DNA of 64,000 bases from Escherichia coli (GTDB taxonomy: Bacteria > Pseudomonadota > Gammaproteobacteria > Enterobacterales > Enterobacteriaceae). Position numbers: made by a program. The stretch is from the NCBI RefSeq assembly GCF_016026235.1, contig NZ_CP065613.1; one strand, 5' to 3'. Positions 3,801 to 6,800 of the stretch are shown here, in pieces; the first letter of the stretch is position 1; each line of letters starts with the position of its first letter.

Positions 3801-6800
3801 ATTGCACAGCCCCGCCCGTAATTTCTGACCGTTATCCGTTCACCCGCAGCAGACGTAATCCCCGGCCTGCCGGCGGCATTCTGCTGCCTGTTATATCCCC
3901 GTGAGGAATATGAAAATGAAACAACAGTATCAGACCCGCTACGAATGGCTCCACGAAAGCTACCAGAAATGGCTGACCGGCTTCACCCGGCACGCCGTAT
4001 CCTGGGGCGTGTGTCATCCGAATATCTACTACTTCCATAATCTGACGCCCGGTTGGGTGTCATTCAATGGTGAAAAACCGGAGATTGCCATCGTACCCCA
4101 GAGCCTGCACCGGCTGATTTATGGCCCTGACAAACGGGCCACGCCGCCCCTGGATGATGATCTGATCGTGAATTTATGCACCAGTGAACATCTGCTGGTT
4201 CATCATCCGATGCTGGAAGGCATTCTCCTGTCTGAATGTGAACGTCTGAGGCAGCGTTCTCTGGCAAATAAACTGATCAGCCTCTTCCGTCAGTTTGGTG
4301 GCACGGAGTTGCGCCTCAAACTGGTCTGGCTTTGCTGGCTTGATTTAATGACCGGAAACAGCCTTGAAGACTGGAAAGAGAACCTGAAACGGAAATCAGA
4401 AAAAGAGCTGGAGGAATGGATCATCAACCGTCAGAGGCAGAGCGCAGCACTGACGGATCTGATGGATCAGTACGTGCTCCTGGCATACCGCACAACGGTT
4501 GACGATAACCGCAACTGATGCCGGTTGCTTCCGGAAGGTGTGACAAAATACGGAAATGATGATGCTCCCGGCCCCGCATGCTCACCTGCAGAGCGTGTTC
4601 GTCGTCATCATACTGAGCCATGACGGGCGTCTTAAGGGCATCCTGTCATTGCTGAGCAGGCAACACCACCAGAGGAGCCACGGACAGGGATGTTCTTTAC
4701 AGCCCGATGCACGCCAGGTTCTCAGCAGACTGAATGTGCAGGTGCGGTTATTCACCAGAAATGGCATGCTGCGGTACATACCCATCCTGGTGACAATATG
4801 TACGTGGCGACAGCGATCCCGGCACTGTGGAAGAGACTCACTCAGCCTGCAGGATATTCTTTCCGGCATCCGGGAATGTCCGCCTGAATGCAAACAGGAT
4901 GATATTTGAATCCGTAATACTGTTCTTTCATCATAAATAATTTATGCAGATACAGTTAACCGTCACAGTAGCAGGTTTGTTTTCCCGGGAAATAATATCC
5001 GTCAGACTGATGCCGGAACATATCTGAAACACGTTATGATGTTTTGTTATCAGAAATGTTGTATATTCTTATCCGTGACGGCAGTTTAATGCCCTCTGGT
5101 ATCACCTGATAATGCATATCCTGCGATGATTCGTTATATTTACGGGACACGTCTCTTTTCATTGTGCTCCTTTTCAGACTTCATTTTCCATAAGTGTTCC
5201 CCGGCATAAAGGAGGTACCTTTCTGGCGTTTATAACTCTCTTTATCGGTGACGCCGGTAATACAGGGAATACCACACCGACAAACGAGGTATTAACGGAC
5301 GATATTTCAGTGTCCATAATTTTGCTGTCCGGTTAAATAACGTCAGTCTGCTGCCCTCTGACTGTAATCATCAAAGCCGGAATGCATACCGGGTTACAAC
5401 GTAAAAAAAGTGATGCTGGCCCCCGGTGCAGCTGGCGGGCGAAACATGTTTACCTTTCAATACCCCCTGTCTGCAGTCTCCACTCTTCCATCCTCTTAAG
5501 CTACGTCGGCCACATGAGTGCACTTCCATGATAACAGGTATTCCTGTCAGCATAACGAAGCCGGTTACCTTCCCTTCCTCCTGCATTTCCTATCAGAATG
5601 ACTGTACAGCGCGCAGATTGCCTTTTTATTGACCACCTTAATATACCATTATAAACTTCTTTTTATCATGTTATTATCACCTTATTATGTTTAATTTTTA
5701 AGCAGCCAGAGAAAGAGGATGGTTCAGAAAATTTTGTCGGATAAGGTTATGAATGAAAGAACAAATGCGTATTACTCTTATTATCTTGGAGGGCGTAATA
5801 TCTCCGTACTGCCCCTTAATGTTTATGATCCCCCGGAACGTTTTATCGCTTACATAAAAAAAAACAGAGAAAATCTGAACATCACACTTTCAGATTTTGA
5901 ACTTGAACAAATAATTTCTGGTATGCGTCTGAAGGCCCTGGCCTTCCTGGTCCCCCTGGAAAAAATATCCTGGATCGCAGGCAGTGAACGCGCATGCTTA
6001 TTTTCCTGGTATCTGTTGATGCAGTTTATCCAGAATAACAGGGCAAAAATAAGCGCAGACTTGCTTCAAAAGAATAAACTGTATCTTAAAGAAGAGTATC
6101 TGGAAGGGAATGCCTTCCCGTCGGACTCATCGACACAGTTCAGACAAATACTCAGAGTTCTCGATATTCTTTCTGATAAGAATTTGCGGGATGAGTGGAT
6201 AATCCAGACCAAAGACAGATGGATACGGGCATTTAAATCAAAGAGTCCTTTCAGTTACCTCCTCCCGGAGAACGAACATGAATGCATATGGACATGGAAT
6301 TATTTGAAGGGAAAAAATATTGCACTGGAAAAACTGGCCAGTTTTCCTGATTCTGCTGATATTTACCACGCAATTCACCTTTCATTTGACATATGGGTTA
6401 CCTGTACACTCACCTCACCTGACGATATAAAAAATTTCAGAAACAGTTTCAATAAGGCCAAGGCGCAGCGCAAGTACAAAAAAATGCAGGAAGATAAAGT
6501 CAATGTACAGTTTTTTCTTGACGCAGAAACCAGGGCGCAGCTCAAAGAATTATCGAGGGTCAGAAGACTCAGTACCGGCGAAATGCTGCATGACCTGATT
6601 GTTGAAGAGTATAAAAGGTACCGACATTCCAGATAATTTCAGACATATATTATCTCCGTGAGTCCCCCGCCACCTTTCCGGTGTGCGGGGTTTTTGTCTT
6701 TTTTCACCGGGAATACATGTATGAATCCGTCTGATGCCATTGAGGCAATTGAAAAACCGCTCTCCTCCCTGCCTTACTCACTTTCCCGTCACATCCTGGA

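What the first reader, a model, noticed from the sequence alone, without database searches (positions are those of the whole stretch)
4520..6640. Low-GC cargo gene (305 aa, RHH-like C-terminus) in the variable slot between alpA and the island GTPase
In CP4-57-type islands the interval between alpA and the YfjP/YeeP-family GTPase carries variable cargo, including the rnlAB toxin-antitoxin pair in CP4-57. Here that slot holds an AT-rich ~1.2 kb stretch with no long ORF and then a 305-aa ORF that I could not place in any family, whose C-terminus has a ribbon-helix-helix-like pattern. Composition and position suggest recently acquired cargo, possibly a single-protein defence or addiction function with self-regulation.
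Basis: inference. Interest (0 to 1): 0.55.

Follow-up and report, generated by a model that had tools for sequence, protein, structure and literature searches.

The report
Conserved RHH regulator of AlpA-type islands
The 305-aa gene is real, but it is not variable cargo or a recognisable defence gene: it belongs to a widespread, uncharacterised family of ribbon-helix-helix DNA-binding proteins that sits at the regulatory hub of AlpA/Gp2-type genomic islands and most likely controls its own promoter.

Summary
The ORF at 5719-6636 (+, 305 aa, 40.6% GC) is real. It is under purifying selection (dN/dS 0.11-0.20) and occurs in 1962 of 5426 complete E. coli genomes as a "hypothetical protein". The C-terminus (residues 258-305) is a ribbon-helix-helix (RHH) domain. 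It is preceded by two tandem copies of a helical module, and the second copy plus the RHH aligns with MatP (hhalign 80%).

The "variable cargo / single-protein defence" reading is not supported. There is no PADLOC hit. Homologues down to about 20% identity hold the same position in Salmonella, Serratia, Edwardsiella, Enterobacter, Yersinia, Chromohalobacter, Klebsiella plasmids and metagenomes. They lie next to a divergently transcribed alpA/Gp2(YagK-YfjJ) block, often as the first gene before the YeeP-like GTPase, DUF932, antirestriction and RadC genes.

In 8 of 14 independent distant loci a 13-bp palindrome, ACTAC-N3-GTAGT, lies 21-70 bp upstream of the gene (background: 2 hits in 134 kb). 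The E. coli clade has a different RHH beta-strand (NVQF instead of LNTY). It lacks the palindrome and instead keeps a conserved 29-bp block at 5665-5693.

Best reading: an autoregulated island backbone regulator. This is a new variant of a known kind and of moderate interest. The 1.2-kb upstream stretch is a lineage-specific spacer left by an inversion of alpA.

The parts
5719..6636 (+). 305-aa gene. It is 98.7% identical (4 residue differences) to the common E. coli allele WP_000250228.1, 'hypothetical protein', also called 'Ybl124'. It belongs to an unnamed gammaproteobacterial family of proteins of about 300 aa.
   Evidence: ORF. dN/dS 0.11-0.20. Annotation. Family of 162 representative clusters. 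AF2 model with pLDDT 91.6 and pTM 0.82.
6490..6633 (+). Ribbon-helix-helix DNA-binding domain, residues 258-305. The beta-strand is V261-L267 (VNVQFFL), followed by helices 269-282 and 286-304.
6265..6468 (+). Helical module copy 2, residues 183-250, with motif E-C-x-W-x-W-x-Y-L ... P ... Y..I..FD.W. Together with the RHH it aligns with MatP residues 11-129.
5977..6228 (+). Helical module copy 1, residues 87-170, with motif R-A-C-x-F-x-W ... P-S-D-S ... LD ... W. It is an internal duplicate of copy 2.
   Evidence: hhalign of the family sub-alignments for residues 87-170 against 183-250: probability 97%, E 4e-11.
5665..5693 (+). Conserved upstream block ATCATGTTATTATCACCTTATTATGTTTA, at -54 to -26 from the ATG. 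It is the candidate promoter and operator of the E. coli clade.
   Evidence: It is nearly invariant in orthologous loci with 39-78% protein identity, while the flanking sequence diverges. It is unique in the 64-kb window. It is retained with the gene in the BL21(DE3) pheV island remnant.
5634..5688 (+). Pair of direct repeats CACCTTAWTAT, at 5634-5644 and 5678-5688, 44 bp apart. A sigma-70-like TTGACC-17-TAAACT lies at 5629-5657.
   Evidence: Repeat finder and promoter scan. Seven matches in the window against 2.3 expected. This is weak evidence on its own.
4520..5634 (.). Non-coding spacer specific to this island lineage. Its role is unknown and it is not part of the conserved unit.
   Evidence: No family hit for any ORF. 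No Rfam match. 4476-5386 has no homology in 11 orthologous loci. It is conserved within E. coli, in 1285 genomes at >=80% coverage, and some strains tolerate IS1 insertions in it.
3618..4518 (+). alpA (3618-3821) plus a conserved 205-aa ORF (3901-4518). This block is normally divergent from the 305-aa gene and is inverted here.
   Evidence: tblastn and blastn matches to the Serratia, Enterobacter, Yersinia and Salmonella blocks run in reversed orientation. The excisionase/AlpA-type HTH is supported.
6721..8897 (+). Downstream YeeP/YfjP-family GTPase, split into 6721-6909 and about 8211-8897 by an IS4-family element (transposase ORFs 6926-8209, minus strand).
   Evidence: NCBIfam hits. Intact GTPase in the same position in NCTC86 and other genera. 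None of the 5426 complete E. coli genomes carries this insertion.

Best explanation
The gene encodes a sequence-specific DNA-binding protein that is part of the conserved backbone of AlpA/Gp2(YagK-YfjJ)-type integrative islands, the CP4-44 / SRL-PAI-like class.

Shown here:
- It has a C-terminal ribbon-helix-helix domain preceded by two tandem copies of a helical module. The last ~120 residues are colinear with MatP.
- Across very divergent relatives it sits at the junction between the leftward alpA/Gp2 block and the rightward block (GTPase, DUF932, antirestriction, RadC, CbtA/CbeA).
- Most distant relatives carry a single 13-bp palindrome, ACTAC-N3-GTAGT, 21-70 bp upstream of their own start codon. 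The E. coli clade has a different RHH beta-strand and instead keeps a different, clade-conserved upstream block.

Inferred:
- The protein dimerises through the RHH and inserts the paired beta-strands into the major groove of this operator.
- It thereby represses (autoregulates) its own promoter, and with it probably the rightward island operon that it heads.
- The N-terminal helical repeats would serve oligomerisation, or sensing of a partner or signal.
For: RHH domain:
- Profile hits to SvtR (E 0.008) and CopG.
- PF10723 (RepB-RCR_reg) hits 4 of 84 family members at E<=1e-3 and 21 at E<=0.1; RHH_1 hits 7.
- PHROG Arc-like repressor, E 0.07.
- In the linked-dimer AF2 model both copies of the strand are scored as beta-strand.

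A real, constrained gene: dN/dS 0.11-0.20.

Backbone position:
- It is the first gene before the GTPase and divergent from alpA/Gp2 in Serratia, Edwardsiella, Enterobacter, Yersinia, Salmonella, a second E. coli lineage and L021.
- The same module is on Klebsiella IncHI1B/FIB plasmids at 23% identity.
- It lies next to divergent alpA or Gp2 in L015 and L016, and in all 8 metagenome or viral loci that have enough flank.

Operator:
- Eight of 14 independent non-E. coli-clade loci have a match with at most 1 mismatch within 150 bp upstream, against 2 matches in 134 kb of background. Binomial P is about 1e-18.
- Five of these loci were not used to define the motif.
- There is one promoter-proximal site per intergenic region; only L010 has a second 1-mismatch match, 1 kb upstream.

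Covariation: beta-strands reading LNTY or YNF go with the palindrome. The NVQF clade lacks it and keeps a 29-bp block conserved down to 39% protein identity.

The gene plus at least 85-160 bp of upstream sequence travels as a unit.
Against: - No binding, expression or phenotype data exist. No paper was found for Ybl124 or WP_000250228, and the SRL PAI annotation lists the ORFs in this interval (orf42-45) as 'no similarity'.
- For the E. coli clade, which includes this window, the operator is not identified. The conserved block could be only a promoter. No positionally conserved palindrome was found, apart from a weak GTTTAA-N3-TTAAGC at -30.
- The window protein itself does not reach any Pfam threshold.
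- Regulation of the downstream operon rests only on gene order. A weak terminator-like site lies at 6676-6690.
- Six of the 14 distant loci have only degenerate versions of the palindrome.
- In this window alpA is not divergent and the GTPase is broken, so whatever circuit existed is rearranged here.
Confidence: 0.6

Rival explanations
1. It is a switch or copy-control repressor aimed mainly at the divergent alpA/Gp2 module. In this reading the protein works like CopG of rolling-circle plasmids, or like a phage or satellite master repressor. It would keep the Gp2-type rolling-circle initiator and the excision activator AlpA off, and so decide between island quiescence and excision or replication.
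For: - The best Pfam family among members is PF10723, the RHH regulator of rolling-circle Rep genes.
- A Gp2/REP_ORF2-G2P or alpA gene is the invariant divergent neighbour in all loci with flank.
- A long (400-1700 bp) divergent intergenic region is typical of genetic switches.
Against: - The palindrome is single and lies 21-70 bp from the family member's own start. It is 350-1000 bp from the divergent gene's start.
- In this window the alpA block is inverted, so no shared control region exists.
- No second operator was found.
Confidence: 0.15
2. It is a MatP-like architectural or segregation protein. It would bind one specific site on the island and organise or anchor the island DNA. Possible modes are interaction with condensin or divisome factors as MatP does, or acting as the centromere-binding partner of the adjacent GTPase. 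In this reading it does not regulate transcription.
For: - The C-terminal 120 residues align colinearly with the MatP helical domain plus RHH (hhalign 80%, E 1.4e-5).
- The 13-bp 5-N3-5 palindrome has the same geometry as matS.
- A GTPase gene follows directly in the enterobacterial clade.
Against: - The MatP C-terminal coiled coil is absent.
- No matS site is in the window.
- Pfam MatP domains are not matched at threshold.
- The GTPase is absent from many loci and is not of the ParA or TubZ type.
- The site lies in the promoter region, as expected for an operator.
Confidence: 0.1
3. One reading: a recently acquired cargo gene that encodes a single-protein anti-phage defence or addiction function. 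The N-terminus would be the effector and the C-terminal RHH would give self-regulation.
For: - GC content is low relative to neighbouring genes.
- K-12 islands carry defence or toxin-antitoxin cargo (abpAB, rnlAB) in the equivalent interval.
- The N-terminal 180 residues have no assigned function.
Against: - No PADLOC or NCBIfam hit.
- The all-helical fold has no enzyme-like match.
- The nearly invariant residues are mostly W, P, L, A and I, with no recognisable catalytic motif.
- Synteny is conserved across genera at 20-78% identity.
- The family is nearly absent from viral contigs.
- The RHH is C-terminal, unlike antitoxins.
Confidence: 0.05
4. It is a dedicated partner of the downstream YeeP-type GTPase, acting as an antitoxin-like or regulatory subunit in a two-gene module.
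For: An 85-200 bp gap and co-orientation with the GTPase are seen in all enterobacterial-clade loci and in L022.
Against: - The GTPase is missing next to family members in L010, L015, L016, L018 and L026.
- BL21(DE3) and this window keep an intact 305-aa gene next to a truncated or IS-split GTPase.
- K-12 GTPases yfjP and ykfA exist without it.
Confidence: 0.08

Closest known systems
MatP (macrodomain Ter protein; Pfam PF06303 + PF17414; PDB 4d8j, 3vea, 7nyw)
   Same: - A helical domain with a W-x-W-x-Y-L helix is followed by a basic helix and an RHH, colinear over 103 columns (hhalign 80%, E 1.4e-5).
- MatP is the closest solved structure for residues ~185-305.
- The target sites of distant family members are 13-bp 5-N3-5 palindromes, like matS.
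   Different: - The family lacks the MatP C-terminal coiled coil.
- It has about 180 extra N-terminal residues, including a second copy of the helical module.
- It is island- or plasmid-borne, not a core chromosomal gene.
- Its site sequence is ACTAC-N3-GTAGT, not GTGAC-RNY-GTCAC, and there is a single promoter-proximal site.
- Pfam MatP models are not matched at threshold, and no matS site is in the window.
CopG / RepB-RCR_reg (PF10723) and Arc/Mnt/SvtR-type RHH repressors
   Same: - The RHH fold and sequence signature match.
- A palindromic operator overlaps the protein's own promoter region.
- It is adjacent to a rolling-circle-type initiator gene (Gp2/REP_ORF2-G2P), as CopG is to RepB.
   Different: - Those proteins are 45-60 aa and consist of the RHH alone. 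Here the RHH is the C-terminal sixth of a 305-aa protein.
- The gene is divergent from the Rep-like gene, not in an operon with it.
Master repressors of integrative elements and satellites (functional analogy only, from general knowledge)
   Same: The gene sits at a divergent control region next to alpA, near the integrase in small islands, and is probably autoregulated.
   Different: It uses a different DNA-binding fold (RHH, not HTH). No evidence of induction or derepression exists. This is an analogy, not a tested similarity.
orf42-orf45 of the Shigella flexneri SRL pathogenicity island
   Same: The gene order is the same: YfjJ/Gp2, Hha, AlpA(Vis), hypothetical ORFs, YeeP GTPase, Ag43. The 305-aa gene corresponds to one of these 'no similarity' ORFs. 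This is inferred from gene order and was not aligned here.
   Different: The published annotation assigns no function or family.

Membership tests
Ribbon-helix-helix (MetJ/Arc/CopG) superfamily | A beta-strand / helix / turn / helix unit of about 45 residues | tested here: met
Ribbon-helix-helix (MetJ/Arc/CopG) superfamily | Sequence-profile match to curated RHH families | tested here: inconclusive
   The family profile hits SvtR at E 0.008. PF10723 hits 4 members at E<=1e-3 and 21 at E<=0.1, and RHH_1 hits 7 at E<=0.1. The window protein alone reaches no Pfam threshold. The PHROG Arc-like hit is E 0.07.
Ribbon-helix-helix (MetJ/Arc/CopG) superfamily | Dimer formed by an antiparallel two-stranded beta-sheet | tested here: inconclusive
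   This rests on a model only. In a tandem construct (residues 246-305, linker, 246-305) folded with a 38-sequence alignment, both copies of the strand (261-267) are scored as beta-strand. Core pLDDT is 86-90, overall pLDDT 72, pTM 0.64. Strand-to-strand pairing was inferred from the secondary structure and not checked in the coordinates.
Ribbon-helix-helix (MetJ/Arc/CopG) superfamily | Binds a palindromic or repeated operator | not testable with these tools
   The support is indirect. ACTAC-N3-GTAGT lies upstream in 8 of 14 distant loci, and it covaries with the beta-strand sequence. The E. coli clade site is unidentified.
MatP (PF06303 + PF17414) | N-terminal helical domain followed by an RHH, matched by the family models | tested here: inconclusive
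   hhalign against MatP gives probability 80% and E 1.4e-5 over MatP residues 11-129. Pfam PF06303 gives only E 0.76, and MatP_C hits one member at E 0.06. hmmsearch gives E 0.38.
MatP (PF06303 + PF17414) | C-terminal coiled coil for tetramerisation and ZapB contact | tested here: not met
   The protein ends at residue 305, directly after RHH helix 2.
MatP (PF06303 + PF17414) | Recognises matS (GTGACRNYGTCAC) | tested here: not met
   No matS match with at most 1 mismatch is found in the 64-kb window. The upstream palindromes of relatives have a different sequence.
Known anti-phage defence systems (PADLOC-DB v2) | Match to a defence-protein model | tested here: not met
   Zero families at E<=1 for the 305-aa protein and for the 205-aa neighbour. 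There are no NCBIfam defence hits.
Type II antitoxin with RHH | A small protein with an N-terminal RHH, co-transcribed with a cognate toxin | tested here: not met
   The protein is 305 aa and its RHH is C-terminal. The downstream gene is a GTPase that is absent from many loci.
   Orthologues at 20-78% identity occupy the same position in more than 18 loci from different genera, plasmids and metagenomes. K-12 islands lack the gene, which is consistent with loss.

The most novel reading that the evidence does not exclude
This is an unrecognised MatP-related family, built from a duplicated MatP-type helical module plus an RHH. It would be the master switch of a very large class of AlpA/Gp2 integrative islands and plasmid modules across Gammaproteobacteria. 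It would read a 13-bp matS-like palindrome and control expression of the island's 'leading-region-like' genes (GTPase, DUF932, antirestriction, RadC, CbtA/CbeA), and possibly excision or rolling-circle replication.
Probability: 0.3. Interest if true: 0.6.

Novelty: new variant of a known kind. Interest (0 to 1): 0.4.

Why it matters
Islands of this class (CP4-44/CP4-57-like, SRL and she PAI-like) are among the commonest mobile elements in E. coli and Shigella. They carry adhesins, toxin-antitoxin pairs, antirestriction genes and defence cargo, yet apart from AlpA their regulation is essentially unknown.

If confirmed, a conserved DNA-binding protein at the junction of their two transcription blocks, with a predicted operator, gives a directly testable handle on how these islands are silenced or activated. 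It would also define a new RHH architecture that may be related to MatP.

It does not add a new defence system.

Tried and rejected
**Searches on the 305-aa protein that gave nothing usable**
- NCBIfam, PADLOC and Pfam gave no usable hit on the single sequence.
- A single-sequence PDB search gave only noise, TFIID bromodomains at E ~0.4.

**Related loci**
- With A1 on genome contigs it found only one Serratia locus.
- Two viral-contig scans were almost empty, so the family is not phage-borne.
- The first two context look-ups returned only ~1-kb contigs.

**Candidate K-12 relatives**
- YfjH (318 aa, beside alpA) and PerR (297 aa, before ykfA) were tested as possible relatives and rejected. hhalign probability was below 1%.
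- An HMM scan of the CP4-44, CP4-57 and CP4-6 regions found no family member.

**MatP alignment**
It returned only near-identical sequences, so the MatP comparison rests on an effectively single-sequence template (Neff 1.0).

**The 1.2-kb upstream stretch**
- It was tested as a decayed Gp2/alpA-block gene (tblastn), for protein families and for RNA families. All were negative.

**Operator in the E. coli clade**
- The ACTAC-N3-GTAGT palindrome was searched for and is absent.
- No positionally conserved palindrome was found.

**Literature**
- Searches for Ybl124, WP_000250228, MatP-like and the DUF932/AlpA/RadC module gave nothing on function.
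Full report

The window has an ATG-initiated ORF at 5719..6636 (+) of 305 aa.
- Its GC content is 40.6%. The alpA-205aa block upstream is 53.6%, the 3' part of the downstream GTPase is 60%, and the window as a whole is 46.3%.
- It is a genuine coding gene. Against the Salmonella (78% aa identity), L021 (69%) and Serratia (69%) orthologues, dN/dS is 0.20, 0.19 and 0.11.
- All full-length orthologues start at the same methionine, and residues upstream of the next Met are invariant.

The 1199 bp between the 205-aa ORF and this gene (4520-5718) indeed has no ORF above 117 aa.
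- None of its ORFs hits NCBIfam or PHROGs, and Rfam finds nothing there.
- It is AT-rich only from about 4900 onward (42% GC). 4520-4900 is 55% GC.

**2. Distribution**

- The 4520-6640 segment is found in 1962 of 5426 complete E. coli genomes, and 1313 of them have at least 80% of it. There are up to five copies per genome, always chromosomal.
- RefSeq calls the product a "hypothetical protein" (WP_000250228.1). It is followed by a "GTPase family protein" and Ag43.
- In BL21(DE3), the gene plus about 160 bp of upstream DNA survives between a truncated integrase and a truncated GTPase at tRNA-Phe.
- The published table for the Shigella SRL island shows the same order: YfjJ, Hha, AlpA, "no similarity" ORFs, YeeP, Ag43.
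- No paper was found under the names Ybl124 or WP_000250228.

**3. What the protein is**

Single-sequence searches were uninformative.
- NCBIfam and PADLOC gave nothing.
- Pfam gave only a MatP N-terminal hit at E 0.76.
- PHROGs gave an Arc-like repressor hit at E 0.07 over residues 243-299.

An exhaustive search of 1.84 billion representative proteins found 162 clusters at E<=1e-3. Most are about 300 aa and 20-30% identical, so this is a broad, unnamed family. With an 84-sequence alignment (A2):
- The family profile hits the RHH protein SvtR (E 0.008), MatP (E 0.38, aligned over 193-300) and CopG.
- Pfam PF10723 (RepB-RCR_reg, an RHH family) matches 21 members at E<=0.1 and 4 at E<=1e-3. RHH_1 matches 7.
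- AlphaFold2 gives a confident model, pLDDT 91.6 and pTM 0.82. It is all-helical and ends in an extended segment plus two helices.
- Foldseek against the PDB has nothing significant, but MatP chains rank first.
- Against AFDB50 there are 135 hits. All are uncharacterised gammaproteobacterial proteins of the same length, and a few are labelled "CopG family transcriptional regulator" or "Ybl124".
- A tandem construct of residues 246-305 was folded with a family alignment. Both copies of the strand (261-267) are scored as beta-strand, as expected for an RHH dimer, with core pLDDT 86-90.

Two further points on architecture:
- Residues 87-170 and 183-250 are an internal duplication. hhalign gives 97% probability and E 4e-11, with shared motif C-x-W-x-W ... 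P ... FD.W.
- The sub-alignment of residues 183-305 aligns colinearly with MatP residues 11-129, at probability 80% and E 1.4e-5.
- I treat MatP relatedness as probable but unproven. The template was effectively a single sequence, the Pfam thresholds are not met, the MatP coiled coil is missing, and no matS site is in the window.

**4. Context: backbone, not cargo**

In every related locus with enough flank, the gene lies next to a divergently transcribed alpA and/or Gp2(YagK/YfjJ) gene 400-1700 bp away.
- Enterobacterial clade: it is the first gene of the rightward block, followed by a YeeP-type GTPase, DUF932, antirestriction, RadC and CbeA/CbtA. The loci are:
  - Serratia (69% identity), Edwardsiella (49%) and Enterobacter (51%).
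  - Yersinia (21%).
  - A second E. coli lineage (53%), Salmonella (78%) and L021 (69%).
- Klebsiella/Citrobacter IncHI1B/FIB plasmids carry a 23%-identical member in the same module, but without the GTPase.
- L015 has it between the integrase and the Gp2-AlpA-DUF932 block. L016 (Chromohalobacter) has it divergent from alpA at the island edge.
- Eight metagenome or viral-contig loci all have a divergent Gp2 or AlpA next to it.
- The family is almost absent from IMG/VR.

K-12's CP4-44, CP4-57 and CP4-6 have no member. The similar-sized neighbours YfjH and PerR are unrelated.

Co-divergence with the island over this range is what a backbone gene shows and what cargo does not.

**5. This window is a rearranged variant**

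- The alpA-205aa block (3618-4518) matches the orthologous blocks in reverse orientation.
- Homology to other genera resumes only at about 5635 (Serratia, Salmonella) or 5387 (L021). 4476-5386 has no counterpart in the 11 orthologous loci compared.
- The "1.2-kb AT-rich stretch" is therefore a lineage-specific spacer, produced by an inversion and insertion. Some strains tolerate IS1 insertions in it.

**6. Operator evidence**

Among distant members I noticed a perfect 13-bp palindrome, ACTAC-N3-GTAGT. It is the only perfect copy in each ~15-17-kb locus, at -34 (L010), -70 (L015) and -36 (L016). I then tested it on new loci.
- Five of 11 further independent loci have a match with at most 1 mismatch, at -21 to -45.
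- Overall, 8 of 14 loci have a match within 150 bp upstream, against 2 background matches in 134 kb. Binomial P is about 1e-18, with the caveat that three of the loci defined the motif.
- There is one promoter-proximal site per intergenic region. Only L010 has a second 1-mismatch match, about 1 kb upstream.
- Members with the palindrome have RHH beta-strands reading K(A/P)LNTY or KAYNF.
- The E. coli clade reads K(V/I)NVQF(F/Y). It has no such palindrome (best 3-4 mismatches) and keeps a different block, ATCATGTTATTATCACCTTATTATGTTTA (5665-5693).
  - That block is nearly invariant down to 39% protein identity while its flanks diverge.
  - It is unique in the window.
- L003, which has an intermediate strand (ISLQVF), has ACTAA-TAT-TTAGT next to that block.

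This covariation of reading residues and upstream element is what is expected if the protein binds its own promoter. For the E. coli clade, the exact site remains unidentified.

**7. Mechanism**

- Most likely (0.6): an RHH dimer binds the promoter-proximal operator and autoregulates. By position, it probably also gates the rightward island operon. The duplicated helical modules would provide oligomerisation or signal or partner sensing.
- Shown: the fold, the family, the synteny, the purifying selection, and the conserved, covarying upstream elements.
- Inferred: binding, repression, and the regulon.
- Rivals:
  - Control of the divergent alpA/Gp2 module, CopG-like (0.15).
  - A MatP-like architectural or segregation role (0.10).
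  - A GTPase partner (0.08).

**8. Verdict**

- RHH and self-regulation: supported.
- Variable cargo and defence: not supported.

The gene represents an uncharacterised RHH architecture, probably MatP-related, at the control hub of a very common island class. It is a new variant of a known kind, of moderate interest, and directly testable by EMSA and reporter assays.

Noticed in passing
window 3618-4518: The alpA + 205-aa ORF block is inverted relative to the orthologous islands of Serratia, Salmonella, Enterobacter and Yersinia, where alpA is divergent from the 305-aa gene. The 205-aa ORF is itself a conserved backbone gene (52-61% identity across genera) with no family assignment in NCBIfam, PADLOC or PHROGs.
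   Followed up: partly
window 6721-8897: The YeeP/YfjP-type GTPase is split by an IS4-family element. The element's transposase is itself broken into two ORFs (6926-7363 and 7400-8209, minus strand). None of the 5426 complete E. coli genomes carries this insertion, so the source is probably an IS-rich lineage outside that collection (possibly Shigella; not checked).
   Followed up: partly
window 9194-12001: The Ag43/Cah autotransporter gene is truncated at profile position 634 of 948. An IS21-like element interrupts it (IstB helper ATPase at 11252-12001, minus strand).
   Followed up: partly
window 9014-9250: An Rfam match to IS102/IsrC RNA (RF00124, 76.7 bits, E 6e-12) lies just upstream of the Ag43 gene, as in K-12 CP4-44, where isrC lies between yeeP and flu.
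   Followed up: no
window 5977-6228 and 6265-6468: There is an internal duplication inside the 305-aa protein. Residues 87-170 and 183-250 are homologous helical modules (hhalign 97%, E 4e-11), each with a C-x-W-x-W helix.
   Followed up: yes
L010 (Klebsiella quasipneumoniae plasmid NZ_CP131698.1, 174562-191473): Large conjugative IncFIB/IncHI1B plasmids carry a complete copy of the island module (Gp2, zinc-ribbon, AlpA, family member, WYL, DUF905, DUF932, antirestriction, RadC, DUF987, YeeU/CbtA) but no GTPase. A second near-match to the palindrome (ACTACAGGTTAGT) lies about 1 kb upstream of the member in the 1.7-kb intergenic region.
   Followed up: partly
window 4424-4621 (minus strand): A 65-aa ORF overlaps the 3' end of the 205-aa gene. 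RefSeq annotates it as a hypothetical protein (WP_032140970.1) in other strains. It has no family hit and is probably a spurious call.
   Followed up: partly
window 2731-2907 (minus strand): An Hha/YmoA-family gene (E 2.5e-18) lies in the leftward block together with the Gp2-like (1416-2021) and zinc-ribbon (852-1256) genes. An IS110-family transposase remnant lies at 12-848.
   Followed up: no
window 5719-6633: The window allele differs from the common E. coli allele (L001) at 4 residues with about 1 synonymous change (dN/dS ~1). These are too few substitutions to interpret, but the pattern fits relaxed constraint in a copy whose neighbouring GTPase is disrupted.
   Followed up: no
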